DNA from: an uncultured Clostridia bacterium
Lineage (GTDB): Bacteria > Bacillota > Clostridia > Christensenellales > UBA1242
DNA: 52,642 nt
Reading direction: 5' to 3'
NCBI GenBank assembly: GCA_944349615.1
Contig: CALVNK010000001.1
Coordinates: 1 to 52,642 of the forward strand
Every line of letters begins with the position of its first letter. Positions within the stretch are counted from its first letter, which is position 1. Shown piece by piece: positions 6,418 through 50,069 of this stretch. Under the pieces are notes generated by a model. The model had not been told where the DNA came from and did no database searches. It saw nothing but the letters and a program-made list of their open reading frames with translations. The position numbers were made by a program, and so were the translations under genes.

Positions 6418-6957
6418 ATGGAAGCATTATTTGAAAATACAACTTTTCTTAATAGAGATGATTTATATAAGTATCAAAAAAGTGAAGTCAAGAAATTTAT
6501 ATTGCTTGCAAGTGGACTACTGCTTTTAGTCACTGTTGGTATAAGCGTGCCACTTGCCTTGTTTGTGGAGATATATCTTGGTGCAATTATGCTTATCATT
6601 GGTGCGGTATGTTCTGTTGTGCTTCTTCCTTACATAATCAATGATGGCATCAAAAAACAGAATGCACAGTTATTTTCTCAATCCGACATTGCAATTGAGT
6701 TTGCTTTTTTTCAGGAGGAGTTTCAAGTCCAAGCAAAACAAAATGGAGATAGTGGAAAGAGGGCAAGTGAAAGTTATAACTATAGTCAAATAACAAAGGT
6801 TTCTCTTTACAATGTCTATATGTTTATCTATACATCTCCGCGCACAAGCCTTGTACTCGACAGACGCAACATGACTAAAGGGACGAGCGGAGAAGTCGCA
6901 AGTCTATTTAAAAGTCACGGAGTAAAAGTAATCGACAAAACAAAGGCTGTCAAATAG
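6418..6957 (+). CDS. membrane protein (YcxB-like topology: two TM helices plus a soluble C-terminal domain)
   Basis: Good SD (AAAGGGAAAAATATG). Two adjacent hydrophobic helices at aa 27-75. Family assignment is tentative. Confidence 0.45.
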   Translation: MEALFENTTFLNRDDLYKYQKSEVKKFILLASGLLLLVTVGISVPLALFVEIYLGAIMLIIGAVCSVVLLPYIINDGIKKQNAQLFSQSDIAIEFAFFQEEFQVQAKQNGDSGKRASESYNYSQITKVSLYNVYMFIYTSPRTSLVLDRRNMTKGTSGEVASLFKSHGVKVIDKTKAVK

Positions 6958-6976
6958 AGTGGCTTAGCCACTTTTT
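6958..6976 (+). terminator. rho-independent terminator
   Basis: AGTGGC-TTA-GCCACT followed by TTTT, immediately after the stop codon. Confidence 0.55.
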
Positions 6977-7127
6977 CGAGCGTGGGGTCTTCGCTTGTTT
7001 GTCTATAGATTGTTAATTTGTCGACGCATAAAGTCTGCTTTTAAAAGTAGGCTTTTTTTAAATAAAAGTTTTTGGACAAGTGTCATAAAAATAGATGCTA
7101 GGCTGTATATTAATTTAGGGGTGTAGT

Positions 7128-7904
7128 TTGGAAATACTCGTGCTTATCGTTTTAGGACTTGTGCAAGGCTTATGCGAATTTTTACCAATTTCATCAAGCG
7201 GACATTTGGTGCTTCTATCAAACCTTTTTGGCATTGAAGATTCGCTTTTTGTAAGCATAATTCTCCATGTTGCGACCCTTCTTTCAATCTGTGTTGTGCT
7301 TCGCAAAGAGATCTTTGCTTTAATTCGTCGTCCATTTTCAAGCGAAAGCATGAATATCTATATCGCAACAATTCCAACTTGCCTTTTTGCACTTATCTTT
7401 ATGTCACTTATAAACTCATCTTTTGAAGGAAGTTTTTTGCCATTCGCATTTTTGATAAGTGCGGTCGTGCTTTTCGCAGGCGAGAAACTTGCAAAAAAAG
7501 ATAAATATCCGTGGCAAAGTAAGGAGAGAACTATAGACTCTAAAAAGGCCTTTCTTATTGGCGTAAGTCAAGGTATAGCCATCTTTCCCGGGATATCTAG
7601 ATCAGGCATGACAATTTCAACAGGACTTATGCTTGGCGCTGACAAAAGTGAAGTTGCAAAATTTTCATTTTTGCTTTCTGTGCCTGTGATATTACTTTCA
7701 CTTGTGATGGAAATTTCAAAAATGGTGCTTTTTGACTATTCAATCTCTGTCAGTGCAATAGGCATTTCTCTATCATTTGCTGTCGCATTTTTAGTCGGCA
7801 TTCTTTCAATCAAAGCAATGCTCTCGCTTACTCAAAAAGCAAAATTCAAATACTTTAGTCTTTATCTTATTATCATGGCAGTTATTGCCTTCTTTGTGAT
7901 ATGA
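7128..7904 (+). CDS. uppP: undecaprenyl-diphosphate phosphatase
   Basis: LPISSSGHL motif, GISRSG motif, polytopic membrane protein of the right length. TTG start after AGGGG. Confidence 0.85.
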   Translation: MEILVLIVLGLVQGLCEFLPISSSGHLVLLSNLFGIEDSLFVSIILHVATLLSICVVLRKEIFALIRRPFSSESMNIYIATIPTCLFALIFMSLINSSFEGSFLPFAFLISAVVLFAGEKLAKKDKYPWQSKERTIDSKKAFLIGVSQGIAIFPGISRSGMTISTGLMLGADKSEVAKFSFLLSVPVILLSLVMEISKMVLFDYSISVSAIGISLSFAVAFLVGILSIKAMLSLTQKAKFKYFSLYLIIMAVIAFFVI

Positions 7905-7957
7905 CTATAAATTTTGATTGATTTTTAAAACTTTACTTAAATTATAAAAAACACTTT

Positions 7958-10606
7958 TTGTACTTAAAGCAAATGAAATCTCTTATAAAGGAAAGGCGTG
8001 TGAAAGAATTTTATACAAGGTCAATATCAGATGTTTTAAATGAGTTTGGTGTAAGTCCAAATGGGCTTACTTTATCACAGGTCGAAGAGCGAAAAAAAGA
8101 ATTGCCAAAAGATGAAGTCTATAAAAAATCTAATATCGTTTCAAAGTTTTTCGAACAGTTTTTTGATTTAATGATAATAATCTTGCTTGTTTCATCATTT
8201 ATATCTATTCTTATTGGCATAATAGAAAACACAAGCGAAGAGATCATTGACGGCGTACTTATCTTAATTATCGTACTTATGAATGCAATATTTGGCGTTG
8301 TCCAACAATACAAAGCAGAAAAATCGCTAGAGGCACTTGGCAAGCTCATTATGCCAAAGACTATAGTAATAAGACAAGGCAAGGCTGTCAAGATTTCCAC
8401 TAGTGATCTAGTCCTTGGTGATATAGTAGTGCTGGAAGCAGGTGGCATAGTGCCTGCAGATCTAAGACTTATCGAGAGCGTTCAACTCAAGATTGATGAG
8501 TCAAGTTTGACAGGAGAAAGCCACGCGGTAATCAAAGATTGTCAAAAGGTACTTGACGGCGATACTCTCCTAGGCGAGCGTGTCAATATGGCATACAAAG
8601 GTACGACGGTCAGTTTTGGCAAGGGCAAGGGAGTTGTGAGTGCTATATCAAATCAAACAGAATTTGGCAAGATTGCAAACGCACTAAAGGATAGCGCCAA
8701 AGAGCAAACTCCACTTCAAAAGAGTATTAAAGATGTCGGCAAGGTGCTGACATATCTTGTTTTGATTATAGCAGTGATCACATTCGTTATGGAGATATGT
8801 ATCAATCCGCACAATATCATGGAAGCATTTTTGACGGCGGTTGCCATTGCAGTTGCTGCCATCCCAGAAAGTATGCCGGCAGTGATTACAATCATCATGA
8901 GTCTAGGTGTCAGCCGTCTTGCAAAACAAAAAGCCATAGTAAGACAAATGCATTCGGTGGAAACGCTCGGTTGTTGTGATGTAATTTGTTCAGATAAGAC
9001 TGGTACAATTACACAGAACAAGATGACAGTAAAAGGTTGCTATTATGATGACAAGGTGCAGGGCACAGAGTTTAATAAAAGCATGGCGTTTGCCAAACTT
9101 ACTAAAGCCTGCTTCTATTGCAATGATGCTGTTGAAGGTGAGAAGGGCTTGATCGGCGATCCAACAGAGATTGCTCTTATGAATTTTGCAAAGAAATTCA
9201 ACAAATCTCAATTTACAAAATTGAACGAGTTGCCATTTGATTCTGGCAGAAAACTCATGAGTGTTCTTGTCGATGAAAACGGCAAAACCATGTACACGAA
9301 AGGCGCGCCAGACATCATCTTAGAAAAGTGCGATAGGGTGTTAAAAGACGGTAGAATATTGCCACTTGATAATGCTAGCAAAAATAAAATCTTAAGCGGA
9401 AATGAAAAGATGAGCGGAAAGGCTATGCGGGTACTCGGTTTCGCCTTTAAGCCAAGTTGCGGTGACCGCGACTTCTATGAAGATGGCTTAATCTTTATAG
9501 GGCTTGTTGGTATGATTGATCCGCCTAGACCAGAGATTGAAGAGGCTGTTCAAAAATGCAAGGATGCTGGCATGAAGCCTGTAATGATTACTGGCGACTA
9601 TAGTCAAACCGCCTTTGCGATTGCAAGTGAAATAGGCATTGCTTCTTCAATGAAACAGGTGCTAAGCGGACATGAACTTAAAAAAATGAGCGAAGAAAAA
9701 CTTGCTAAGGTTATTGACCAGTTTACAGTCTTTGCCCGCGTTTCGCCAGAAGATAAGGTACGCATTGTGGAAGCATTTAAAAAGCGCGGTCATGTTGTAG
9801 CCATGACAGGTGATGGCGTCAATGATGCTCCATCAATCAAAAAAGCCAATATCGGTATTGGTATGGGTATAAGTGGAACAGATGTTGCAAAGCAGGCAAG
9901 CGACCTTATAATTACCGACGATAACTTTGCAACCATTGTGATTGCAGTCGAAGAAGGGCGCAAGATCTATGAGAACATTCAAAAGACAGTCAAATTTCTC
10001 TTTTCGGCAAATATGGCAGAGCTCTTTTCGCTGTTTATTGTAACCTTAATCTATCCACAATTTGTTTTCCTGCTCCCTGTGCAAATTCTCTTTGTTAACT
10101 TAATAACCGATTCATTTCCTGCCATTGCACTTGGACTTGAAAACCCTGAAAAAGACCTTATGAAACTTCCGCCGCGCTCCTCTAAGAAAAGTCTATTTGC
10201 AAATGGAATTGGCGTGTCGATAATTGTGCTCGGACTTGTGCAGACAGCCCTTGTCGTCTTGAGTTATGTCCTTGGAATTTGCCTATACGATGACAAGATC
10301 GCAATGACTATGGGCTTTTACACTTTAAATATAATTCAAATGTTTTACCTTGCGTCAATGCGAACCAATGTCAATATCTTCAAATCTAAACCACACAAAA
10401 ACATATTCTTTCTGATTGCAGTAGGCTTCTGTTTCCTGATCGTTATTCTTCTTGCCTTTACTCCTTGCGGAGCACTTTTGCAACTTGAAAAATTGAATCT
10501 CTCGCAGTGGCTAATAATATTTGGACTTTCAATGGCTATGCTTGTGATAAGTGAAATATACAAATTTATAGCAAAGCGAGTTATGAAAAGAATTACAAAA
10601 AAATAA
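7958..10606 (+). CDS. calcium-translocating P-type ATPase (P2A/PMCA-SERCA-like)
   Basis: TGES, DKTGTITQNKM phosphorylation site, MITGD, TGDGVNDAP, 10-TM layout. The true start may be GTG at 8000 (SD AAAGGAAAGG), giving MKEFYTRS... Confidence 0.9.
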   Translation: MYLKQMKSLIKERRVKEFYTRSISDVLNEFGVSPNGLTLSQVEERKKELPKDEVYKKSNIVSKFFEQFFDLMIIILLVSSFISILIGIIENTSEEIIDGVLILIIVLMNAIFGVVQQYKAEKSLEALGKLIMPKTIVIRQGKAVKISTSDLVLGDIVVLEAGGIVPADLRLIESVQLKIDESSLTGESHAVIKDCQKVLDGDTLLGERVNMAYKGTTVSFGKGKGVVSAISNQTEFGKIANALKDSAKEQTPLQKSIKDVGKVLTYLVLIIAVITFVMEICINPHNIMEAFLTAVAIAVAAIPESMPAVITIIMSLGVSRLAKQKAIVRQMHSVETLGCCDVICSDKTGTITQNKMTVKGCYYDDKVQGTEFNKSMAFAKLTKACFYCNDAVEGEKGLIGDPTEIALMNFAKKFNKSQFTKLNELPFDSGRKLMSVLVDENGKTMYTKGAPDIILEKCDRVLKDGRILPLDNASKNKILSGNEKMSGKAMRVLGFAFKPSCGDRDFYEDGLIFIGLVGMIDPPRPEIEEAVQKCKDAGMKPVMITGDYSQTAFAIASEIGIASSMKQVLSGHELKKMSEEKLAKVIDQFTVFARVSPEDKVRIVEAFKKRGHVVAMTGDGVNDAPSIKKANIGIGMGISGTDVAKQASDLIITDDNFATIVIAVEEGRKIYENIQKTVKFLFSANMAELFSLFIVTLIYPQFVFLLPVQILFVNLITDSFPAIALGLENPEKDLMKLPPRSSKKSLFANGIGVSIIVLGLVQTALVVLSYVLGICLYDDKIAMTMGFYTLNIIQMFYLASMRTNVNIFKSKPHKNIFFLIAVGFCFLIVILLAFTPCGALLQLEKLNLSQWLIIFGLSMAMLVISEIYKFIAKRVMKRITKK

Positions 10607-41229: not shown

Positions 41230-41320
41230 GGGGAGATACTCAAGTGGTCGAAGAGGCGGCCCTGCTAAGGCTGTAGGTCGGGAAACCGGCGCGAGGGTTC
41301 AAATCCCTCTCTTCCCGCCA
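41230..41320 (+). tRNA. tRNA-Ser (anticodon GCU), class II with a long variable arm and encoded CCA
   Basis: Manual fold. Acceptor GGGGAGA/TCTTCCC. Anticodon stem CGGCC/GGCTG with loop CTGCTAA. Variable arm about 19 nt. T-arm GAGGG-TTCAAAT-CCCTC. Discriminator G + CCA. Confidence 0.85.
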
Positions 41321-42879
41321 AACAATTGTCGTTTGAACTCAAACGGCAATTTTTTATTTTCTTCTTCAATTATCTCGACTTCTTTATTATAAATTGTTGT
41401 TCCATCATCATTATCATCAGTAGTATCATTCTTTGTGTTTATGTGATAAATTTCTTCGCCTGGATTAAGACTTGTGTTATACACAATTGTAATTTTATTA
41501 TCATACAAAACTACTTTTGTTATAAAGTTATTAAAAAAATCATTTCTATCAGTGGAACTATTAAACTTTTTCTTAGCATAAATGTTTAAAAAGTTAATAA
41601 TTTGTTGTTTTTCTAGTGGTTTTATTTGATGTGCTTCTTCATAAGCAATTTGTTCTTCAATTTTCTCTTTTTCATTTTCAAGTTTTAAAAGTCTTTCTTG
41701 TGTGGATTTTGTGCAAATTCCTTTTTCAAGAGCATCTAATATTGCATTAATTGCTTTATCTTTTGTTTTTAATTCTTCCTTTAATTTAGCTAAAATTGCA
41801 TTTTCACTTATCTCACTATTAAATCTTGATACGACAACTTCTGCAATACTATCAATTACTTTTGGCTCTAATACAAATTTTTTTGTTTTTTCAAAAACAA
41901 AGTTCTCTATATCATCTTTTTTAACATTATGCTTATTACATTTACATAATTTTTTCTTTTTACCTGAGCATTTATAATATTTATATATTCTTCCTGTTGC
42001 GCTTGTTCCTGTTTCTGCTGTCATCAAATGATAACATTCTCCACAATAAAGTTTTCCACTTAAAATATATATTTCATCTACTTCTTTGCAAGTTCTTTGT
42101 CTATGTTTGTGTTTATTCATAATTTCATTGCAAATTCTAAAAGTATTTTCATCTATAATAGGTGGAAAAACATTATTATATTCTTCGCCATCAATTACAC
42201 ATTTCCCTGTATATTTAATGTTTCTTATCATTTTAGATATTATATTTATTGAGAAAGAATAGCCGTTTTTAGTTTTTAAACCCTTATTATTTAGGTCGTC
42301 TACAATTTCTTTTATTTTCTTTCCATTAGCATAACTTTCAAAAATACTTTTAACTATTGCACTTTCACTTTCGTTTAAAACATATTTCTTATCAACAACA
42401 TCAAAACCATATAAAATATATCCGCCAATATAGTTCCCTTTCATTAAACTTTCCCTAATACCTCTTTTTACTTTTTGAGACAACTCTGCCGAATAGTATT
42501 CTGCCATACCTTCAAGAACACTTTCCATTAAAACACCGCTCGCATCGTTTGAGATATTTTCTTTTGCTGAAATTACTCTTACATTGTTCTTTTTAAGTTT
42601 TGCTTTATAAGTTGCACTGTCATATCTATTTCTTGCAAATCTATCAAGTTGATAAACTAGCACAAAATCAAAATCATGACTTTTGCTATCTTCTATCATT
42701 TTTAAGAACTCTGGTCTTTTGTCTGTTGTTCCAGATAAAGCTCTATCTATATATTCACCAACAATAATTAAATTATTTCGTTTTGCATAAGCATAACATT
42801 CACGAAGTTGACCTTCAATAGATTGTTCTGTTTGACTATGAGAACTAAATCTCGCATAAATAACTGCTCTTTGTTTCAT
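41299..42879 (-). CDS. large serine recombinase (resolvase catalytic domain + recombinase/zinc-ribbon domains + coiled coil)
   Basis: AVIYARFSSHSQ (catalytic Ser), DRFARN, CGECYH...YYKC zinc ribbon, C-terminal coiled coil. The last 7 codons overlap the 3' end of tRNA-Ser. Confidence 0.9.
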   Translation of the reverse strand: MKQRAVIYARFSSHSQTEQSIEGQLRECYAYAKRNNLIIVGEYIDRALSGTTDKRPEFLKMIEDSKSHDFDFVLVYQLDRFARNRYDSATYKAKLKKNNVRVISAKENISNDASGVLMESVLEGMAEYYSAELSQKVKRGIRESLMKGNYIGGYILYGFDVVDKKYVLNESESAIVKSIFESYANGKKIKEIVDDLNNKGLKTKNGYSFSINIISKMIRNIKYTGKCVIDGEEYNNVFPPIIDENTFRICNEIMNKHKHRQRTCKEVDEIYILSGKLYCGECYHLMTAETGTSATGRIYKYYKCSGKKKKLCKCNKHNVKKDDIENFVFEKTKKFVLEPKVIDSIAEVVVSRFNSEISENAILAKLKEELKTKDKAINAILDALEKGICTKSTQERLLKLENEKEKIEEQIAYEEAHQIKPLEKQQIINFLNIYAKKKFNSSTDRNDFFNNFITKVVLYDNKITIVYNTSLNPGEEIYHINTKNDTTDDNDDGTTIYNKEVEIIEEENKKLPFEFKRQLFGGKRGI

Positions 42880-42975: not shown

Positions 42976-43179
42976 ATGGAAAAGTTTGCAGAAAGATTAA
43001 AGGAATTAAGATTAGAAAAAGGACTTTCAATATTTGCACTTAGCAAGGCGACAGGGCTTGGTGTTGCTTCCATTTGCCGTTGGGAAAACTGCCAAGCCGA
43101 TGTCAAAGGTTCACAGCTTGTTATTCTTGCCAAATTTTTTAAAGTTTCAATAGATTATTTAATGGGGCTGGAGGATTAG
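42976..43179 (+). CDS. XRE-family helix-turn-helix transcriptional regulator (cI-like)
   Basis: LKELRLEKGLSIFALSKATGLGVASICRWENCQ is the HTH_3 pattern. No SD; apparently leaderless. Confidence 0.85.
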   Translation: MEKFAERLKELRLEKGLSIFALSKATGLGVASICRWENCQADVKGSQLVILAKFFKVSIDYLMGLED

Positions 43180-43180
43180 T

Positions 43181-43735
43181 ATGGTGGTTGAGATTATAAG
43201 TATCGTTTTAAGTTCGGTTTTATCATTAATTGCGGTTGCTGTTTCTATAATATCAATCAATAAACAAACCAAGAGTCAAAATATAAATGCAACAATACAA
43301 CTTTTTGATAAAAGGTTTGAGATTTACAACTTTATGACAGATGCTTGGTATATTGTTGGATTTTTTGAAGGTTTTAAGAAAGGCTTAAATATTAATGACA
43401 ATAATAACACCTATAACACGATAATACAGTTAGTTAAGAAATGTAAACTTTCGCAGGACATATTGAACAGGATTGAACTCGCAAATGCAAATAGCAAAAG
43501 ATATCAATATATGCAGGGGCTGTTATTTTCTGGGAAAGTCAGAGATTATTTAGGTAAGTTTTTATCTAATTTTTCGATATATATAAATGGAATATATTTT
43601 AAAAGAATTACAGACAAAGAGAAGACTGAAAAGGCATATTGCGAAATTATGAAACTTCATAAAACTCAAAAATTAGATATGGAAGAATTGATGAAATTTA
43701 TAAATCTATCTGATGTAAAAAGATTAGATATTTAG
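43181..43735 (+). CDS. hypothetical protein with a single N-terminal TM helix, co-transcribed with the XRE gene
   Basis: The ATG is 1 nt after the XRE stop. VVEIISIVLSSVLSLIAVAVSIISI is a TM helix. No family recognised. Confidence 0.5.
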   Translation: MVVEIISIVLSSVLSLIAVAVSIISINKQTKSQNINATIQLFDKRFEIYNFMTDAWYIVGFFEGFKKGLNINDNNNTYNTIIQLVKKCKLSQDILNRIELANANSKRYQYMQGLLFSGKVRDYLGKFLSNFSIYINGIYFKRITDKEKTEKAYCEIMKLHKTQKLDMEELMKFINLSDVKRLDI

Positions 43736-43950: not shown

Positions 43951-44133
43951 AATTCTCCTTTTATATAATAAGTCGAAAACGGGTGTCCCGTTTGTCGCAA
44001 TAAGGGGAACTGATACAAATTGATACACTGTTTGAGAAGATGTGATGCACAAAATCTCTTGATAAATAAAGGGATTTGAAACATGTAATGTGCAATTTGA
44101 GTCAGTTCCTTATCCTGCCTCTTATAAATTTTA

Positions 44134-44634
44134 CTAATTTTTATCATCTTTTTGATTTATGTCAACTTCATAATCATAATAAGCAAACATCTTTTCTTTG
44201 CTGTCAACAAGTTTTTTTGGCAGTTTATTAAAATAACTTTCAAGATATTTATTAAAAACTTTCTTATCATTTTCTTCCATTTTAAACATTAAAAAGTTAT
44301 ACATCTGCCTTAACATTACTTGATTTACTTCTTCATTTGCATAGGTATTCTTTATAAAAGGTTTGCTAAATTTTATAAAGTAATTCATTCTTTTTGTGTG
44401 TTCATGTATCGCATCTAAAAGAGTTTGTTTTTCATTCTTCAAAGTCCAGTTATCGTTTTCTTGTTTTTCTAAAACATCAATTCCAATTTTTATAACAGTG
44501 TTAAAGAAATTATTTTTTGATACATTGCACGGCTTATAAAACTTGTTATACACTTCATTTAATTTACACAATACCTTTTCGCTTTTAATTCTTATTAAGT
44601 TTTCTTTTGTGATTGCATTGTTTTGATTTTTCAT
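44134..44634 (-). CDS. hypothetical protein with a ribbon-helix-helix-like N-terminus
   Basis: LIRIKSEKVLCKLNEVYNKF...SKNNFFNTVIKIGIDVLEK fits a strand-helix-helix pattern. GGAG is 6 nt from the ATG at 44634 and abuts the ATG at 44640, so 44634 is preferred. Confidence 0.4.
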   Translation of the reverse strand: MKNQNNAITKENLIRIKSEKVLCKLNEVYNKFYKPCNVSKNNFFNTVIKIGIDVLEKQENDNWTLKNEKQTLLDAIHEHTKRMNYFIKFSKPFIKNTYANEEVNQVMLRQMYNFLMFKMEENDKKVFNKYLESYFNKLPKKLVDSKEKMFAYYDYEVDINQKDDKN

Positions 44635-44672
44635 TTTCATCTCCTTTTAAGTTATTTACGAAAGTGCTTTTT

Positions 44673-44736
44673 TTACATAATTATCCTCCTTTTAAATTAA
44701 AATTTTTAAAATTTAATTTTACATTTCACACCTCCT
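44673..44736 (-). promoter_or_regulatory. two start-stop mini-ORFs (AGGAGG-N6-ATG-TAA) in the leader of the RHH-like gene
   Basis: Minus strand: AGGAGG (44736-44731)-N6-ATGTAA (44724-44719), and AGGAGG (44690-44685)-N6-ATGTAA (44678-44673). An 8-bp AT-only inverted repeat lies between them. Confidence 0.5.
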
Positions 44737-44753
44737 ATATTCATTCTACAATT

Positions 44754-45067
44754 GTCGTTCGGACACCATTTGTCACAGCGGAAAAAGTTTTTTTAATTTT
44801 TAACTTTTTCTATTTCCTGACAAAAGATATTTTTTAATAAAGTGATTTTTAACCACATCTTAGCATTCTCGCGGGGACACCATTTGTCCCCACGGGAAAA
44901 TATTTTTATATTTTTACATAGTCGCGTGTTCACCATTTGAACATGCGAGAAAAGCTTTTTCTAACTGCAAGTATAACAATGTCGCATTATCACCATTTGA
45001 TAATGCGGAAAATTAATTTTCACTTGTATTATAAAAAAGTCGCATGGACACCATTTGTCCACGCGAC
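44754..45067. repeat. array of five stem-loops with an invariant CACCATTTG centre and covarying arms
   Basis: Copies at 44754-44781 (degenerate), 44868-44896, 44921-44949, 44981-45008 and 45039-45067. Consensus GTCGC-N5-CACCATTTG-N5'-GCG-(A/G)-(G/C)AAAA. Centres are spaced 114, 53, 60 and 58 nt. Confidence 0.8.
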
Positions 45068-45075
45068 AAAAATTT

Positions 45076-45107
45076 AATAAAAAAAGCTTAACTTTTTGTT
45101 GAGCTTT
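45076..45107 (-). terminator. terminator candidate for the MazG-helicase-methyltransferase operon
   Basis: Minus strand: AAAGCTCAAC / GTTAAGCTTT stem (one mismatch) followed by TTTTATTAAATTTTT. Stem-loop copy 5 (45039-45067), followed by T6 on the minus strand, could act as a second terminator. Confidence 0.45.
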
Positions 45108-45730
45108 TAGTTTTTCTTTTGAACTAAAATTTCAAAAACCTTTTTGGGTTTAGAATATCTTAGCATATCTGCTTCTTTTACTTTTGTATCACCAATAATT
45201 GAGAAAAATTTAACGGCATCTTGTATTGTGAAAAATCTTTTATTATATCCTTCAACATAGTAAAAATTTTCTTCCAGCTTTTTACCTTGACCTGCACCAT
45301 GATTTATATCTTCAACAGAATTAACCCTAGCAATTAAATAGCCATTTGGAGTAAGAATTCTTTTAATTTCTCTCATTATATTTTTTGTGGTGTTTTCATC
45401 AAAATAATGCAAACTTAAATCGGCAATAATTAAATCAAAAGAATTGTCTTCAAAGGGCAAGCGCTTTGAAATGTCAACAATTTTAGTTTCAATATTGTTA
45501 AATTCTTTATTTATTTTTTCAATTGCAACATCAGAATAATCACAAGCAATAACACCAAAACCTTTTTCTGTTAAATAAAGAGTGTCATTCCCCGTGCCAC
45601 AACCTAAATCCAATACTTTTGTTTTACACTTATTTAAAACATCTTTGTAATCATCAAGCCAATTATCATAAACAATTTTGCCCGATGAAAATTTTTTGTG
45701 AGTTTCATTCCAATAATCTTTAAACTGCAT
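45107..45730 (-). CDS. class I SAM-dependent methyltransferase (Methyltransf_11/25-like, small-molecule/RNA type rather than DNA MTase)
   Basis: Motif I VLDLGCGTGNDT, acidic post-I residue (ACDYS), DLIIADLSLHY. No (D/N)PP(Y/F) or cytosine-5 PCQ/ENV motifs. Its ATG overlaps the upstream stop as TAATG. Confidence 0.75.
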   Translation of the reverse strand: MQFKDYWNETHKKFSSGKIVYDNWLDDYKDVLNKCKTKVLDLGCGTGNDTLYLTEKGFGVIACDYSDVAIEKINKEFNNIETKIVDISKRLPFEDNSFDLIIADLSLHYFDENTTKNIMREIKRILTPNGYLIARVNSVEDINHGAGQGKKLEENFYYVEGYNKRFFTIQDAVKFFSIIGDTKVKEADMLRYSKPKKVFEILVQKKN

Positions 45731-48222
45731 TATAGTCCTCCCATATTTTTGTAATAATCTTCCAGAAACTTTCTCTCTTTTGAAATTATTTTATCTTTTA
45801 TTTCATCAGTAAGTTTGCTCCATAAGTTTGGATTAAATGATAATATGTTTAAGTCTTTACTAAAATAGACAAATCTTTTTCTTTCAAACTTTTCAAATGG
45901 ATTATCCAAAATTGATTTCTTCATTTTTGTTCTATCATTCAAATATTCCATATCATACACACAACCGGACCTGTCAACTTGTAAATTTCTTTCTATCCTG
46001 TCTTTATAAAATGCAGAATATTCGTCAATAAGATTATCCATATTAACTTCACCTTCTTTATCGGCGAGTCTAAACATATTTAATAGGAAAATCAATTTGA
46101 AAGAATATGTTAAAGTGTTTTCATCAACAAAGTCAATAAAGTCTTGCAATATTGTTTCTTCATTGTGGTCTTTTAGTTTCTTGATTTGTTTTATGTTTTG
46201 TATGTCAGCACTTGAAAAATATGGCATCATTTTGCTACCAATAGGTAAATATAAACTTGAAAAATTTGGGCTTTGTTTTACCCATTTACTTAAAGTGTTA
46301 GTTCCAATAAACAATTCTCGTGCTGTTTGTTCAAGTGATTTATAATCTTTATATTTTTCTTCAAATGTAAACACATCAATTGCTTGCATTGATATTTCAT
46401 TTTCCGAAAGTCCTAAAATGTTAAGATAGTCAAAATTATTGTTGATAACACCAGCAAAATCAGAATAGTTTGCTATTTTAAAAAGTGAATTAAAATTCCA
46501 AGGTGTTAGTTTCCCAGCATAGTTGTCAACAACATCAATAACATACAAACATTCTTTTCCTGGATAATTTCTTACACCTCTTCCAATTTGTTGAAGATAT
46601 AAAACCTTGGACAAAGTAGGGCGAGCCATCACGACAACTTCAGTTTGTGGACAATCCCAGCCTTCACTTATTATTTGGCAACTAAGCAAAAACTGAATTT
46701 CTTTATTTTTATACTTCTCAAAAATCTCATCATTACTTTTATTTGAACCATATACGGCCTTTGCTGTGATACCTTGCTCGTTTAACATTTTTTCTAGCTT
46801 TTTACAATGGTTTATGTTTACACAAAAAACAATGCCTTGTTTATAAAAATCTTTTTTAGGAGAAAAGTATTTTTTAATAGTTTTAACAATAAGTTCATTG
46901 CGAGAGTCAACAATAAGGTTTTTTTCCAAATCTGCATAGTTGTAATCTTTTCCATTATATCGAACTTCACTTAAATCGATATTGCTGATAAGGCGATAGC
47001 ATCTTATATTAGAAATTACACCTTTCTCAATTGCTTCCCTAAGGGTTAGTTTACTTTCATATTCTCCGAAAATCTCATCAAGTTTCTTTCTATCAAGTCT
47101 TTCAGGGGTGGCAGTAAGACCAATTAAATATTTAGGAGTGAAATATTGGAGTGTTTTCTTGCAGTTTGCTGCTTGTGCATGATGAGCCTCATCAAAAACA
47201 ATATAATCATAATAACTTTTATCAAGTGAATTCTTTTCTTGAAAAACGGTGTTATAAAATTTAATTTCAATACTCAAAGACTTGTCTAAATTTTCAACTC
47301 TTTTCTTCCAATCGTTTTTTAAAGTTGTGGTCGGAACCATTATAAGAACGTTATGTATTTCATTTTTCTTCGCAAGGTCTTTAATGTCTTCAATAACAAT
47401 TTGTGACTTCCCTGTTCCTGTTGGAATGACAATAAGGGCAGTGTTTATGCCTTCTTGTCGTGATTTATGTAAATCATCAAGTATTTGCTCTTGGTGTTCA
47501 TATAACTTAAACTTTCTTTCTTGCTTAACTACAATGGAATTTATAAAGGTTTCCTTATCTCCAAGATAAGTTTTTATATTGTCAATCGCTTGTTCTTTAA
47601 AAGTTAAATTTTGTATTGAAAAACGAAAAACTTTAAAATCATATAAATTTAGTGTGTTTTGTTTTTCAAGTTGCCTATCATAAGCTTTGTTTCCAATAAT
47701 GCATGGGTGATGATAATGCACACCATTTTCTTCAATCGCGTAATTGCCGTTTTTAGTTTCAATAACATAGTCAACAAAAGCATTCCTTCCGTTTGCTAAC
47801 GAAACAGAATATTCTTTCTTTAAATATTCGGTAGCATTGTCACCATAAGTGTCAACAAACAAGTCTTCAAAAGTTTTTTCTAGTGGAGTGTTATCGGTAT
47901 GGGCGACATCAAAAGAACCACCATCATCTTTAACTTCAATATCTTCGACAGTCTTACATAACCATTCTTTGATTTTATCATAGCAACTGTTATCAACATA
48001 GTTAAATCGATAGAGTTTTTGAAATTCTGCCATATATTTGTTTTGCATTTCACAATATTTTGAATAGTCAAAAATTGTTTCTTGATTGTTCTCGCATATG
48101 TTATCATCAACTATAACGCATATATCATCTTTTTTCAATACGAAAGAATGATGGGTATCATCATAAAAATACTCATCAACAAATTTTAAACCAAGATTTT
48201 CTAACTTCTCTTTATTTATCAT
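45730..48222 (-). CDS. 830-aa fusion: N-terminal PD-(D/E)xK (Vsr/DUF559-like) nuclease motif + SF2 DEAD/DEAH (type III restriction Res-like) helicase + unrecognised about 230-aa C-terminal domain
   Basis: VDYVIETKNGNYAIEENGVHYHH (D...E-x-x-G pattern). Helicase motifs I VIPTGTGKS, II FDEAHH, III GLTATPER, VI QQIGRGVR. Confidence 0.7.
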   Translation of the reverse strand: MINKEKLENLGLKFVDEYFYDDTHHSFVLKKDDICVIVDDNICENNQETIFDYSKYCEMQNKYMAEFQKLYRFNYVDNSCYDKIKEWLCKTVEDIEVKDDGGSFDVAHTDNTPLEKTFEDLFVDTYGDNATEYLKKEYSVSLANGRNAFVDYVIETKNGNYAIEENGVHYHHPCIIGNKAYDRQLEKQNTLNLYDFKVFRFSIQNLTFKEQAIDNIKTYLGDKETFINSIVVKQERKFKLYEHQEQILDDLHKSRQEGINTALIVIPTGTGKSQIVIEDIKDLAKKNEIHNVLIMVPTTTLKNDWKKRVENLDKSLSIEIKFYNTVFQEKNSLDKSYYDYIVFDEAHHAQAANCKKTLQYFTPKYLIGLTATPERLDRKKLDEIFGEYESKLTLREAIEKGVISNIRCYRLISNIDLSEVRYNGKDYNYADLEKNLIVDSRNELIVKTIKKYFSPKKDFYKQGIVFCVNINHCKKLEKMLNEQGITAKAVYGSNKSNDEIFEKYKNKEIQFLLSCQIISEGWDCPQTEVVVMARPTLSKVLYLQQIGRGVRNYPGKECLYVIDVVDNYAGKLTPWNFNSLFKIANYSDFAGVINNNFDYLNILGLSENEISMQAIDVFTFEEKYKDYKSLEQTARELFIGTNTLSKWVKQSPNFSSLYLPIGSKMMPYFSSADIQNIKQIKKLKDHNEETILQDFIDFVDENTLTYSFKLIFLLNMFRLADKEGEVNMDNLIDEYSAFYKDRIERNLQVDRSGCVYDMEYLNDRTKMKKSILDNPFEKFERKRFVYFSKDLNILSFNPNLWSKLTDEIKDKIISKERKFLEDYYKNMGGL

Positions 48223-48538
48223 CTTTTTCGCTTACACTTTCAAGAAAAATCTTCTTTTTGAAAGCACCTCTTTTGTTAACTTTTGCTTTTCTTATTTTCT
48301 CAAATTCATCGTAAGAAACTTTTTTAACATCAAGAATTGCTCTTAACACTTCTTCTAAATCTGCAAGTTCTTCAACATCACTACTTTCTAAATATTCTTT
48401 TAACTCTTCTTGCATTTTAGCGTTAAGAGCTTTCAAATACTCATCATCTTCCATAATCCTTATCACGCAAGTTTTCCCATTATCTCCAGCAATTATCTCT
48501 GGAATTTTATCTCTAACTAACTTATTATAAATTTTCAT
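48212..48538 (-). CDS. MazG-like all-alpha NTP pyrophosphohydrolase (PRA-PH/COG4997-type)
   Basis: MKIYNKLVRDKIPEII start, EELKEY...EELADLEEVL acidic metal-binding helices, KRGAFKKKIFLE end. SD GGAGAAAG before the ATG at 48538. The stop overlaps the helicase start by 11 nt. Confidence 0.7.
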   Translation of the reverse strand: MKIYNKLVRDKIPEIIAGDNGKTCVIRIMEDDEYLKALNAKMQEELKEYLESSDVEELADLEEVLRAILDVKKVSYDEFEKIRKAKVNKRGAFKKKIFLESVSEKDDK

Positions 48539-48722
48539 AATCTTTCTCCGTAACAACATTATAACATATATTTGAATAAAAATGAATAAAAATTTATTAT
48601 ATTACAAATAATTACTTTATTAAGTATTAAACGAATTTTTCACAATTTATTATTAAAATAATGTCATAAACCCTTGTATTTTTTATTATAATGTGATAAA
48701 ATCGTTATAAAAGGAGTAAATT

Positions 48723-50069
48723 ATGTTAATTAGATATTCAGTAGAAAATTATCTTTCATTTGACAAACGTCAAATATTATCTATGGCCGCATCACAAGGA
48801 ACAAGGCATAAAGACCATATTATCGAAAAGTCAAATCACAAGCTGTTAAAGAGCGCTGTAATCTTTGGGGCAAATGCTAGTGGTAAATCAAATTTAATTT
48901 ACTCTATTGCTTTTTCTACAAGTATTGTTTTAAACGGCTTAGAAAAAGTTGATTTAAATAACAAATATTTTAAAATAAAAAAACAACATTATAAGAAACC
49001 AGGTGTTTTCCAATACGACTTTCTCATAGAAGATAAAATTTATAGTTATGGCTTCGCGATATCGTATGAAAGAAAACAAATTATTTCTGAGTGGCTTTAT
49101 ACAGGAGAAGAAAACGATATTTGTGTTTTTGAAAGAGTATGGGAAGATGAAACATATTCTATTCGTACGGACATGAAATTAAAAGGATCAGATGCAACTA
49201 GATTTAAGATCTATTGTGAAGACTACAAAAATAGTAAAAATTTAGCGATTTTAAAAAAGTTGTTCCTATCAGATATTGCATTAAGAGCATCAAAAGATTC
49301 TGAGTATTTTAGAAATTATATCGAAGTACTTACTGAATTAGCAAATGTGATAATTTTATTTCCAGAATCAAAATATCAACAACTAGGCAATGTAGCAAAA
49401 AATCAAGACTTGAAGGAACTATTTGAGAAATTTTTATTATGTTTTGATACAGGAATCGAAAAAGTTGAAAATATGAAAATAGAATTTGATAAAATGTTTA
49501 ATGATGCTCCAAAAGAACAGATTGATAGAATTAAACAAGATATATCAAATAAAATTCATAAAAAAGGAACACTTAATTTAAGAGTTAATGATGATGTTAT
49601 TTCATTAAATTTAGATAATCAAGGCAATATACTTGCCTCAAAAATGTTATTAAATCATGGTAATGATGAAAATTTATTTGAGTGTTCAGAAGAATCTGAT
49701 GGAACTCAAAGATTATTTGATTTAATCCCATTGTTTTTCAGAGAAAATAATAATAGGCTTGTTATTATAGATGAAATTGATAGAAGTTTGCATAATAAAT
49801 TAAGTAGAAAATTTTTAGAACTATATTATGAATTGTCGAAAAATAACAAGTCACAAATCATTGTGACAACACACGAGACATCATTATTAGATCTCGATTT
49901 ACTAAGACAAGATGAAATATGGTTTATAGAAAGAGAAAAAGACCATAGTAGTTTGCTATACTCACTAAATAAATTTAAAGAAAGATATGATAAATCAGTA
50001 GAAAAAGAATATTTACTTGGTAAATATGGGGCAGTTCCAGTTTTTAACCAATTTGCAGAAGAGGACTAG
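48723..50069 (+). CDS. AAA_21/ABC-type ATPase (RloA / AbiLi-like)
   Basis: Walker A GANASGKSN, ESDGTQRL signature-like segment, Walker B LVIIDEIDRSLH, TTHE. Confidence 0.75.
   Translation: MLIRYSVENYLSFDKRQILSMAASQGTRHKDHIIEKSNHKLLKSAVIFGANASGKSNLIYSIAFSTSIVLNGLEKVDLNNKYFKIKKQHYKKPGVFQYDFLIEDKIYSYGFAISYERKQIISEWLYTGEENDICVFERVWEDETYSIRTDMKLKGSDATRFKIYCEDYKNSKNLAILKKLFLSDIALRASKDSEYFRNYIEVLTELANVIILFPESKYQQLGNVAKNQDLKELFEKFLLCFDTGIEKVENMKIEFDKMFNDAPKEQIDRIKQDISNKIHKKGTLNLRVNDDVISLNLDNQGNILASKMLLNHGNDENLFECSEESDGTQRLFDLIPLFFRENNNRLVIIDEIDRSLHNKLSRKFLELYYELSKNNKSQIIVTTHETSLLDLDLLRQDEIWFIEREKDHSSLLYSLNKFKERYDKSVEKEYLLGKYGAVPVFNQFAEED

What the first reader, a model, noticed from the sequence alone, without database searches (positions are those of the whole stretch)
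45107..48538. MazG-like NTPase / PD-(D/E)xK-SF2 helicase / small-molecule-type SAM methyltransferase operon: candidate undescribed defence system
Three minus-strand genes are translationally coupled: an 11-nt overlap at 48212-48222 and a TAATG overlap at 45730. They sit inside a recombinase-bounded island, back to back with an AbiL-like pair. The 830-aa protein combines a Vsr/DUF559-like nuclease motif (VDYVIE...AIEENG) with a complete Res-type SF2 helicase core and an unassigned C-terminal domain. Nuclease-helicase fusions of this kind are typical of restriction and abortive-infection effectors. The partners are unusual. One is a COG4997-type MazG-like NTP pyrophosphatase. The other is a 207-aa methyltransferase that has the Methyltransf_11/25 motif I but lacks DNA-MTase catalytic motifs, so it is probably not a classical self-protecting modification enzyme. 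I do not recognise this three-gene combination as a named system; the single-gene Hhe helicase + Vsr system is the nearest I can recall. Possible logic, as inference only: nucleotide-pool surveillance or depletion by MazG coupled to a translocating nuclease, with the MTase acting on a nucleotide, RNA or the adjacent stem-loop transcripts.
Basis: partly seen in the sequence, partly recalled or inferred. Interest (0 to 1): 0.75.

Follow-up and report, generated by a model that had tools for sequence, protein, structure and literature searches.

The report
Nuclease-helicase with methyltransferase partner, defence candidate
The three genes are real and sit in a defence island, but the conserved unit across bacteria and archaea is an unnamed nuclease-helicase paired with a small non-DNA-type methyltransferase, with the MazG-like gene as an optional extra; this makes it a credible, untested new anti-phage module.

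Summary
Three translationally coupled minus-strand genes lie between an AbiL pair and a hairpin array, in an island bounded by serine recombinases next to tRNA-Ser.

The 830-aa protein has six parts:
- a novel N-terminal domain
- a Vsr/MTES_1575-like nuclease
- a complete SF2 motor, closest to SauUSI
- a MerR/excisionase-type wHTH
- an unannotated C-terminal domain, also found in a McrB-like protein

The methyltransferase (MTase) is a TehB/phosphoethanolamine-MTase-like class I enzyme without DNA-MTase motifs. The 108-aa protein belongs to a family that PGAP names nucleoside triphosphate pyrophosphohydrolase.

The triad is not the conserved unit. In 44 related loci:
- a ~200-aa class I MTase adjoins the helicase in 36
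- the MazG-like gene adjoins it in 14
- both are present in 8
- neither is present in 2

MTase-helicase fusions exist. So do variants carrying a LexA-like S24 domain or a SLOG domain. Neighbouring genes are overwhelmingly known defence genes, and the family is almost absent from phage contigs and plasmids. PADLOC v2 and the literature searches found no name for it.

Verdict: a probable, undescribed restriction-like defence module, best classed as a new variant of nuclease-helicase systems. The methyl acceptor and the self/non-self logic are unresolved. The adjacent hairpins are a separate element.

The parts
48596..48623 (-). Promoter-like site (TTAATA-16-TATAAT) upstream of the first gene, in the divergent intergenic region shared with abiLi
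   Evidence: Consensus scan. The number of promoter-like sites in the region is not above the shuffle expectation, so this is only a plausible site.
48212..48538 (-). 108-aa all-alpha NTP pyrophosphohydrolase-like protein (MazG/HisE superfamily, COG4997-type); a facultative accessory gene
   Evidence: The family has more than 7900 members. Homologues are annotated as nucleoside triphosphate pyrophosphohydrolase. E44, E45, E48, E57, D60 and E63 are invariant. There is no Pfam model for the family.
45730..48222 (-). 830-aa nuclease-helicase; the constant component of the module
   Evidence: 657 and 619 relatives were found in the two searches. The AF2 model has a mean pLDDT of 81.
47923..48222 (-). 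N-terminal alpha/beta domain (aa 1-100) of unknown family; D39, Y53, Y56, Q60 and N61 are invariant
   Evidence: no Pfam match
47557..47895 (-). Vsr/DUF559-like (MTES_1575-type) restriction-endonuclease-fold domain (aa 110-222)
46513..47514 (-). SF2 ResIII/Helicase_C motor (aa 237-570); the closest solved relative is SauUSI
   Evidence: (7clg, E 1e-37)
46177..46350 (-). MerR/excisionase-type winged helix-turn-helix (aa 625-682)
   Evidence: AF2 secondary structure. Weak MerR_1/HTH_17 hits in 9 of 10 diverse members.
45733..46167 (-). C-terminal domain (aa 686-830, NPFEKFERKRF motif) with no Pfam or PDB match; probably a DNA- or partner-binding module
   Evidence: 335 representative proteins carry it, including short stand-alone proteins and the McrB-like protein P0485.
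45107..45730 (-). 207-aa class I SAM-dependent methyltransferase (Methyltransf_25/11, TehB-like); the usual partner of the helicase
45039..45067 (-). Terminator-like hairpin followed by TTTTTT, about 40 nt after the MTase stop. It is also the first unit of the separate hairpin array.

Best explanation
This is a restriction-like anti-phage/anti-MGE module carried on a mobile island.

The 830-aa protein is the effector. It is proposed to bind DNA through its wHTH and C-terminal domain, translocate with its SauUSI/HsdR-type SF2 motor using ATP, and cut with its Vsr-fold nuclease domain.

The small class I SAM methyltransferase is its normal physical partner. The two genes are translationally coupled here, and in some relatives they are fused. 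The MTase is not a classical sequence-specific DNA methyltransferase. The most likely role is to place a non-canonical methyl mark, on DNA or on the enzyme complex, that licenses or restrains cleavage.

The MazG-like NTP pyrophosphohydrolase is an optional third component acting on a nucleotide. It could clean non-canonical dNTPs or remove a nucleotide signal. In some lineages it stands in for the MTase.

Shown: the genes, domains, motifs, conserved linkage, fusions and defence-island context. Inferred: defence function, DNA as the target, the role of the methyl mark, and the MazG substrate.
For: Effector anatomy. The motor motifs and nuclease residues are complete and invariant across 96 relatives from many phyla. 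The best solved relative of the motor is the type IV enzyme SauUSI, followed by type I HsdR and RadD. The nuclease domain hits MTES_1575, which was defined as a Vsr-fold REase. The C-terminal domain also occurs in a protein with MrcB_N and AAA_5 domains.

Linkage. An MTase adjoins the helicase in 36 of 44 loci, upstream, downstream or divergent. Two MTase subfamilies are involved, only 24-34% identical to each other. P0316 is an MTase-helicase fusion. At least one of the MTase and the MazG-like gene is present in 42 of 44 loci. A second, bona fide Pfam MazG-like gene (PF12643, 1e-18) sits in the same co-directional gene block in L018 and L020.

Context. Neighbouring genes match AbiLi/AbiLii, PDC-S53, MzaC, PDC-S68, HerA, PDC-S37/Hhe, PD-Lambda-4_A, ZacC, a SauUSI-like enzyme, SLFN helicases, SIR2, BrxR, NERD, Mrr, HicAB and HipBA. 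The loci lie on integrative elements.

Distribution. The family is patchy and horizontally transferred; the Methanomicrobium copy is 78% identical to the Clostridia copy. It is essentially absent from viral contigs and plasmids. Several relatives have a disrupted helicase next to an intact MTase.
Against: - There is no experimental evidence.
- The MTase lacks DNA-MTase catalytic motifs and a target-recognition domain. Its closest solved relatives are small-molecule enzymes and an uncharacterised protein, 3e23.
- Helicases with an intact nuclease motif occur without any MTase or MTase remnant in 8 of 44 loci. The MTase therefore cannot be an obligatory antidote.
- The MazG-like fold rests on annotation, motifs and sub-threshold hits. 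The single-sequence AF2 model failed, and hhalign against PF12643-type MazG gave only 4% probability.
- LexA-type S24 fusions and the similarity to RadD would also fit a damage-response role.
- The loci sampled are not phylogenetically independent.
Confidence: 0.5

Rival explanations
1. Nucleotide-licensed effector. The nuclease-helicase is switched on or off by a nucleotide-type small molecule. The MTase and the MazG-like enzyme are interchangeable 'erasers' or modifiers of that molecule, or of phage non-canonical dNTPs, rather than DNA-modifying enzymes.
For: - Both accessory enzymes belong to small-molecule or nucleotide enzyme classes.
- They partly substitute for each other: there are six MazG-only loci, none with an MTase remnant.
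- One relative carries a C-terminal cpYpsA SLOG domain, which is a nucleotide-binding module.
- An unrelated MazG family member sits in the same gene block in L018 and L020.
- The same MazG-like gene pairs with another MTase (Methyltransf_21) in a different cassette.
Against: - The loci contain no cyclase, synthetase or other signal generator.
- The MTase-helicase fusion and the tight coupling suggest the MTase acts in the complex.
- No nucleotide-sensor domain is recognised in the window protein itself.
Confidence: 0.2
2. Ordinary restriction-modification logic with an unusual enzyme. The MTase methylates host DNA, using the helicase's C-terminal domains for targeting. The nuclease-helicase destroys unmethylated incoming DNA, as in type I, type III or type ISP systems.
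For: - The operon is coupled and a fused form exists, as in type IIG and type ISP enzymes.
- The motor is HsdR/Res-like.
- Several loci keep an intact MTase next to a frameshifted helicase, which is the decay pattern typical of R-M systems.
- One locus adds a PAPS-reductase-like gene, a family used in DNA modification.
Against: - There is no DNA-MTase motif IV, no target-recognition domain and no S subunit.
- Eight loci have an apparently active nuclease-helicase and no MTase. Under classical R-M logic that arrangement would be lethal.
Confidence: 0.15
3. Not immunity. The module is a DNA-damage or repair function, or serves maintenance of the mobile element: a RadD/XPB-like helicase-nuclease regulated by the SOS response.
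For: - The helicase core is similar to RadD and XPB.
- About a fifth of one clade carries a LexA-type S24 domain that keeps the Ala-Gly site and the Ser-Lys dyad.
- The module always sits on islands or integrative elements.
Against: - Distribution is patchy, horizontally transferred and often decayed.
- Neighbouring genes are almost all defence genes, not repair genes.
- The nuclease fold and C-terminal domain are shared with restriction-type proteins.
- SOS-type sensing is also used by defence systems (own knowledge).
Confidence: 0.1
4. The genes are neighbours only by island packing, with no functional link among them.
For: The MazG-like gene does occur in many unrelated contexts.
Against: The helicase-MTase adjacency persists from 96% down to about 40% helicase identity, across phyla and in both gene orders. 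A gene fusion and start/stop overlaps also link the two.
Confidence: 0.03

Closest known systems
SauUSI (type IV ATP-dependent restriction enzyme, PDB 7CLG)
   Same: It is the best solved relative of the motor (profile E 1e-37; top Foldseek hit). The overall layout also matches: an N-terminal nuclease, an SF2 motor and a C-terminal DNA-reading region. The best PADLOC hit is mREase_IV.
   Different: SauUSI has a PLD nuclease and a DUF3427 reader. This protein has a Vsr-fold nuclease and a different, unannotated C-terminal domain. The PADLOC and PDB matches cover only aa ~243-622. SauUSI has no MTase partner.
Hhe (Gao et al. 2020: helicase + Vsr endonuclease, single gene)
   Same: Both combine a helicase, an MTES_1575-type Vsr nuclease and wHTH modules (for the domain definition). 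Both occur in defence islands; a PDC-S37/Hhe-like gene even neighbours this family in L023.
   Different: Hhe uses an SF1 helicase with the nuclease C-terminal to it. The PADLOC Hhe model does not hit this protein. Hhe has no MTase or MazG partner.
Hma (HmaA Snf2 helicase-nuclease + HmaB methyltransferase + HmaC ATPase; PMC11232893)
   Same: A nuclease-helicase effector genetically linked to a methyltransferase. HmaA alone protects, which shows that such helicase-nucleases can act without their MTase.
   Different: The families are unrelated: a Snf2 helicase with a C-terminal PD-(D/E)xK nuclease, a DUF1156 MTase and a DUF499 ATPase. No PADLOC Hma model hits here.
Type I / III / ISP restriction-modification
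   Same: A ResIII/HsdR-like motor with an N-terminal nuclease, an MTase partner, and fused variants.
   Different: The MTase is a TehB/phosphoethanolamine-MTase-like class I enzyme without the (D/N/S)PP(Y/F) motif or a target-recognition domain. There is no specificity subunit. Some loci lack an MTase altogether.
Solitary nuclease-helicase defence proteins (Nhi, Hna, DdmD)
   Same: The same general kind: a helicase fused to a nuclease acting on invading DNA (for the published comparison).
   Different: The domain families and order differ, and those proteins have no conserved MTase or MazG partner.
All-alpha NTP pyrophosphohydrolases (MazG, HisE, iMazG; CDD group COG4997 from own knowledge)
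   Same: The metal-binding motifs EExxE and EELxD, the ~100-aa helical size, and the PGAP product name of homologues.
   Different: No curated Pfam or NCBIfam model matches. No activity or structure is known for this subfamily. It has an N-terminal YNKLVRDxIPEII segment that is specific to the subfamily.

Membership tests
Type IV restriction enzyme, SauUSI family | N-terminal PLD (HKD) nuclease domain | tested here: not met
   No PLDc hit was found. The N-terminal region instead gives MTES_1575/Vsr-like hits. A genuine PLD + DUF3427 enzyme in L018 was detected by the same scan.
Type IV restriction enzyme, SauUSI family | C-terminal DUF3427 modified-DNA reader | tested here: not met
   No DUF3427 hit was found in the window protein or in 10 diverse relatives.
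Type IV restriction enzyme, SauUSI family | SF2 ResIII/Helicase_C motor related to SauUSI | tested here: met
   7clg at E 1e-37; PADLOC mREase_IV at 6e-34, over aa 243-569.
Hhe | SF1 (AAA_11/AAA_12, DUF4011) helicase carrying a Vsr nuclease and DUF3320 | tested here: not met
   The helicase is SF2 (ResIII/Helicase_C). There is no PADLOC Hhe hit, although Hhe models are in the library, as shown by a hit for an L023 neighbour.
Classical R-M (types I/III/ISP) | DNA methyltransferase of the N6/N4 amino-MTase or C5 class with a target-recognition element | tested here: not met
   Only Methyltransf_25/11/31/12/23 and TehB-type hits were found. The region after strand 4 reads ADLSLHY or ACASLLH. The protein is 190-210 aa with no extra domain.
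Classical R-M (types I/III/ISP) | The restriction subunit is never kept without its cognate MTase | tested here: not met
   Eight of 44 loci have a helicase with intact motifs but no MTase or MTase remnant.
Classical R-M (types I/III/ISP) | Host DNA carries a sequence-specific methyl mark | not testable with these tools
   This needs methylome or nucleoside mass-spectrometry data from carrier strains.
MADS (methylation-associated defence system) | Multi-gene mad1-mad8 locus with a full-length Mad2 | tested here: not met
   Only the SAM-binding core of mad2 matches (profile positions 292-399 of 492; 7e-21, the same strength as generic Methyltransf_25). No other mad genes are present; the mad3 hit belongs to AbiLi.
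Hma | HmaA Snf2 helicase-nuclease, HmaB DUF1156 MTase, HmaC DUF499 ATPase | tested here: not met
   No PADLOC Hma hits for any of the three proteins. The architecture is described in PMC11232893.
MazG/HisE all-alpha NTP pyrophosphohydrolase superfamily | Helical ~100-aa unit with EExxE and ExxD metal-binding motifs | tested here: met
   E44, E45, E48, E57, D60 and E63 are invariant in 16 sequences at 39-86% identity to the window protein.
MazG/HisE all-alpha NTP pyrophosphohydrolase superfamily | Significant profile or structural match to a family member | tested here: inconclusive
   No Pfam or NCBIfam hit. PDB profile hits to a HisE domain (E 0.16) and iMazG (E 1.2). hhalign against PF12643-type MazG gave 4% probability. 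The AF2 single-sequence model had pLDDT 43. The PGAP name of homologues supports membership.
Vsr/DUF559-like (MTES_1575) REase fold | alpha-beta-beta-beta-alpha-beta core with a D ... (I/V)E-x-(D/N)G-x-x-H motif | tested here: met
   The motif is conserved and the secondary structure fits. MTES_1575 hits are all below the gathering score; the best is 3e-5.
Anti-phage defence system (generic) | Enrichment next to known defence genes | tested here: met
   Full-length known or candidate defence proteins flank the module in the window and in most loci inspected. No statistical background model was run.
Anti-phage defence system (generic) | Protection on expression | not testable with these tools
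   Requires experiment.

The most novel reading that the evidence does not exclude
A widespread bacterial and archaeal immunity family in which a translocating Vsr-fold nuclease is controlled not by a DNA methyltransferase but by a small-molecule-type SAM methyltransferase and/or a house-cleaning NTP pyrophosphatase. That would mean either a new chemical mark or a nucleotide-pool-based form of self/non-self discrimination. Alternative built-in sensors in other lineages are a LexA-like self-cleaving domain and a SLOG nucleotide-binding domain.
Probability: 0.3. Interest if true: 0.85.

Novelty: new variant of a known kind. Interest (0 to 1): 0.62.

Why it matters
If it protects, this would add a broadly distributed nuclease-helicase family to the defence repertoire. 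The family is found in Clostridia, Erysipelotrichia, Bacteroidales, Spirochaetes, Campylobacterota, Gammaproteobacteria, Nitrospirae and methanogenic archaea.

It would also pose a concrete biochemical question: what does a TehB-like methyltransferase methylate when it is fused or coupled to a restriction-type motor? An answer could reveal a new nucleic-acid mark or a new way of licensing a nuclease.

The swappable accessories (MTase, MazG-like gene, S24 domain, SLOG domain) make the family a natural system for studying how one effector is wired to different infection sensors. Cultured carriers exist, so the question can be tested directly.

Tried and rejected
- AF2 on the small protein without an alignment gave pLDDT 43 and was unusable.
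- Foldseek on the whole helicase model, against PDB and BFVD, returned only helicase-core matches. The N- and C-terminal domains could not be searched separately.
- PDB profile searches for the small protein and for the C-terminal domain found nothing significant. Pfam scans of 20 carriers of the C-terminal domain found no common family.
- hhalign of the small-protein profile against PF12643-type MazG aligned only the EELAD helix, at 4% probability.
- Rfam on 44000-49000 gave no hit near gathering score.
- Viral contigs held one true family member among 80 loci. Plasmids held none over full length.
- Eight literature searches and four papers gave no description of this pair or triad.
- I considered the hairpin array as an MTase substrate or a part of the system and rejected it. 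It is absent from all but one related locus and present in seven metagenome loci that lack the operon.
- I considered the PF12643 MazG of L018/L020 as a direct helicase partner. It may instead belong to the adjacent SLFN-type helicase, so it is used only as supporting evidence.

Full report
**1. The observation**

ORF listing and direct reading confirm three minus-strand genes. The first runs 48538..48212 and encodes 108 aa. A longer ORF from 48559 exists, but the ATG at 48538 has a GGAG box, and homologues are 108 aa long and begin MKIYNKL. The second runs 48222..45730 (830 aa) and the third 45730..45107 (207 aa). The helicase start lies 11 nt inside the first gene. The MTase ATG shares one base with the helicase TAA. 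The same junctions occur in relatives.

A promoter-like site lies upstream of the first gene. A hairpin followed by a T-run lies about 40 nt after the MTase stop.

The operon is back to back with AbiLi (PADLOC 1.8e-79) and AbiLii (2.3e-18). The island is bounded by two large serine recombinases, of the TP901-1 and conjugative-transposon type. It abuts tRNA-Ser at 41230-41320.

**2. Anatomy of the three proteins**

*Helicase.* Pfam sees only ResIII and Helicase_C, covering aa 237-551. An alignment of 96 relatives, down to 37% identity, keeps PTGTGKS, DEAHH, TAT and QQxGRGxR invariant or nearly so. It also keeps D151, N166, G167 and H171 invariant, with E164, H172 and K187 nearly so, in the segment VDYVIE...AIEENGVHYHH.

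That segment gives repeated sub-threshold hits to PF18741 MTES_1575. In the window protein E is 0.009. In relatives the best values are 3e-5, 1.8e-4 and 3.5e-4. This family was defined as a novel Vsr-fold REase (PMC3710099).

An AF2 model built on the 96-sequence alignment has a mean pLDDT of 81. It shows:
- an N-terminal alpha/beta domain (aa 1-100) with invariant D39, Y53, Y56, Q60 and N61
- an alpha-beta-beta-beta-alpha-beta nuclease-like unit
- two RecA lobes
- a disordered linker (aa 598-622)
- a winged helix at aa 625-682, supported by weak MerR_1/HTH_17 hits in 9 of 10 diverse members
- a well-predicted C-terminal domain (aa 686-830)

The C-terminal domain has no Pfam or PDB match. An exhaustive search found it in 335 representative proteins. 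These include many short proteins and P0485, where it precedes MrcB_N and AAA_5, which is a McrB-type protein.

The closest solved relative of the motor is the type IV enzyme SauUSI (7clg, 1e-37). A type I HsdR fragment, XPB and RadD follow.

*Methyltransferase.* It matches Methyltransf_25, Methyltransf_11 and TehB. Its PDB relatives are phosphoethanolamine N-MTases, TehB and uncharacterised structural-genomics proteins (3e23 covers the full length, 6e-31). It has no DNA-MTase family hit and no (D/N/S)PP(Y/F) motif.

*Small protein.* No curated model matches it. The family is nevertheless very large, with more than 7900 hits. Full-length homologues at 38-44% identity in RefSeq plasmids are named 'nucleoside triphosphate pyrophosphohydrolase'. 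EExxE and EELxD are invariant. The best, non-significant, PDB profile hits are a HisE domain and iMazG.

**3. The conserved unit**

A genome scan returned 44 true relatives, from 96% down to 41% identity. They come from Clostridia, Erysipelotrichaceae, Acholeplasmatales, Lachnospiraceae, Bacteroidales, Spirochaetia and methanogenic archaea. A second search, seeded with a distant member, extended the family to Campylobacterota, Gammaproteobacteria, Deltaproteobacteria, Nitrospirae, Sericytochromatia and Methanosarcina.

ORF calling and profile searches were run on these loci and on ten further contexts. In the 44 loci that can be read on both sides:
- a ~190-210-aa class I MTase lies next to the helicase in 36
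- the COG4997-type small gene lies next to it in 14
- both are present in 8
- the small gene alone is present in 6
- neither is present in 2

No remnants of the missing partner are detectable. The MTase may lie upstream, downstream or divergent. It falls into two subfamilies that are only 24-34% identical.

P0316 is an N-terminal MTase fused to the whole helicase. About 23 of 120 distant relatives carry a C-terminal LexA-type Peptidase_S24 domain. It keeps the Ala-Gly site and the GxSMEP...VK(R/T) Ser-Lys dyad. P0308 carries a cpYpsA SLOG domain. L018 and L020 contain a different, bona fide Pfam MazG-like gene (PF12643, 1e-18) in the same co-directional block.

Conversely, the window-type small gene, at 81-87% identity, heads other cassettes. 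One holds Methyltransf_21 plus an RHS gene. Another holds two DUF488 genes plus DuOB. In distant organisms it sits in housekeeping-like contexts.

The core is therefore helicase plus MTase. The MazG-like gene is a promiscuous accessory that sometimes replaces the MTase.

**4. Context**

In other loci the immediate neighbours give full-length matches to PDC-S53, MzaC, PDC-S68, HerA, PDC-S37/Hhe, PD-Lambda-4_A and ZacC. Other neighbours include a SauUSI-like enzyme, SLFN-type helicases and SIR2. BrxR, NERD and SIR2 appear. HicAB, Mrr and SLFN/AlbA appear. HipBA, a relaxase and an integrase appear.

Only one true family member was found among viral contigs, and none over full length on plasmids. 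The Methanomicrobium mobile copy is 78% identical to the window protein, which indicates recent inter-domain transfer. Several relatives have frameshifted helicases next to intact MTases. Most of these are MAGs, so assembly error cannot be excluded.

**5. Comparison with known systems**

PADLOC v2 matches only the motor (mREase_IV, PbeA, REase_I) and the SAM-binding core (mad2). It matches nothing in the small protein. The defining parts of SauUSI (PLD, DUF3427), Hhe (SF1 helicase), classical R-M (DNA MTase, target-recognition domain) and MADS are absent (see the membership table). No PADLOC Hma model hits either.

Hma is the nearest in logic: a helicase-nuclease linked to an MTase, where HmaA alone protects (PMC11232893). 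Its families are unrelated. Literature searches found no description of this pair. The library does not cover subscription journals, and DefenseFinder could not be run.

**6. Mechanism**

I put the probability that this is a defence module, with the nuclease-helicase as a DNA-directed, ATP-driven effector, at about 0.65. That reading rests on anatomy and context.

The role of the MTase is unresolved:
- Classical self-protective DNA methylation is unlikely. The enzyme lacks DNA-MTase features, and eight loci keep an apparently active nuclease-helicase without it.
- The fusion and the tight coupling argue that the MTase works in the complex.
- The partial interchangeability with a MazG-type enzyme, and the SLOG fusion, keep a nucleotide-licensing model alive.
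- The S24 fusions point to RecA-filament sensing in one clade.

My committed reading has confidence 0.5. It is a restriction-like effector with the MTase as a bound, non-canonical licensing or marking partner, and the MazG-like gene as an optional nucleotide-directed accessory.

**7. The hairpins**

Five units of TTTTYCGC-N5-CAAATGGTG-N5-GCGAC lie at 44753-45071. The core pattern matches five times, against 0.04 matches expected by chance. Across 21 copies from the window, L029 and metagenomes:
- 93.8% of cells pair
- 7 of 10 pairs show compensatory changes
- 0 of 500 shuffles reach the observed covariation score

The array ends in a conserved GGAGG-N7-ATGTAA start-stop. It accompanies the operon only in L029, and it occurs in seven metagenome loci without the operon. 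It is a separate, unexplained element, apparently of mobile elements. Its first unit may also terminate the operon.

**8. Limits**

- No experiment was possible.
- The loci are not phylogenetically independent.
- No background statistic was computed for defence-island enrichment.
- The N- and C-terminal domains could not be fold-searched separately.
- The MazG fold is not structurally verified.

Noticed in passing
window 44753-45071 (minus strand); also L029 10200-10610 and metagenome loci L147, L148, L191, L212, L216, L218, L221: An array of five to seven 10-bp hairpins with a conserved CA-AAUGG-UG top and covarying stems. 7 of 10 pairs show compensatory changes, 93.8% of cells pair, and 0 of 500 shuffles reach the observed covariation score. 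Units are spaced about 55-65 nt apart and each is preceded by a T-run. The array has no Rfam family. It is independent of the operon and lies upstream of genes whose products start with a possible ribbon-helix-helix segment (judged by eye from the sequences). One instance lies near what looks from its sequence like an integrase gene (not profile-tested). Its function is unknown.
   Followed up: partly
window 44722-44742 (minus strand) and L029, downstream of the hairpins: A conserved GGAGGTGTGAAATGTAAAATTAAA sequence: a Shine-Dalgarno box, a 7-nt spacer and ATG-TAA, which is a minimal start-stop ORF. It lies just upstream of the next gene's ribosome-binding site and may be a translational control element.
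   Followed up: no
window 41230-41320 and 41299-42879: tRNA-Ser (GCU) overlaps the 3' end of the serine recombinase gene. The island, which runs at least to 52489 where a second serine recombinase ends, therefore appears to be integrated at the tRNA.
   Followed up: partly
L026 (Methanomicrobium mobile BP, NZ_JOMF01000009.1) 6685-9493: An archaeal isolate carries the MazG-like gene (80% identity) and the helicase (78% identity) of this Clostridia-type module, without the MTase. This looks like recent inter-domain transfer in a gut or rumen setting.
   Followed up: partly
P0293, P0298, P0268, P0344, P0357 and about 18 others; locus L049: Helicase relatives of ~1050 aa end in a LexA/UmuD-type S24 domain that keeps the AAG cleavage site and the Ser-Lys dyad. 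This suggests RecA-filament-triggered self-cleavage of a nuclease-helicase.
   Followed up: partly
P0308 / L138 5001-8033: A helicase relative has a C-terminal cpYpsA SLOG domain (3e-48). An IS element is inserted between its MTase gene and the helicase gene.
   Followed up: no
L130-L135: Small MazG-like genes 81-87% identical to the window's head other cassettes: Methyltransf_21 plus an RHS-repeat protein, and two DUF488 genes plus a DuOB/DUF1351 gene, the latter near an Eco57I-type enzyme. P0181 is a fusion of a HicB-like antitoxin domain to this protein.
   Followed up: partly
L263 2781-6637: A PAPS-reductase-family gene is packed directly upstream of the MTase-helicase pair, with gaps of 2 nt and 0 nt. 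This hints at a DNA-modification chemistry in at least one lineage.
   Followed up: no
P0485 (876 aa), aa 152-289: The unannotated C-terminal domain of the helicase also occurs N-terminal to the MrcB_N and AAA_5 domains in a McrB-like protein. It also occurs in many 130-460-aa proteins with no Pfam domain, which makes it an undescribed domain family of restriction-type proteins.
   Followed up: partly
window 43181-43735 (+) and 44134-44640 (-): Two island ORFs of 184 and 168 aa have no hit in Pfam, NCBIfam, PADLOC or PHROGs. The first follows an XRE-type HTH gene at 42976-43179.
   Followed up: no
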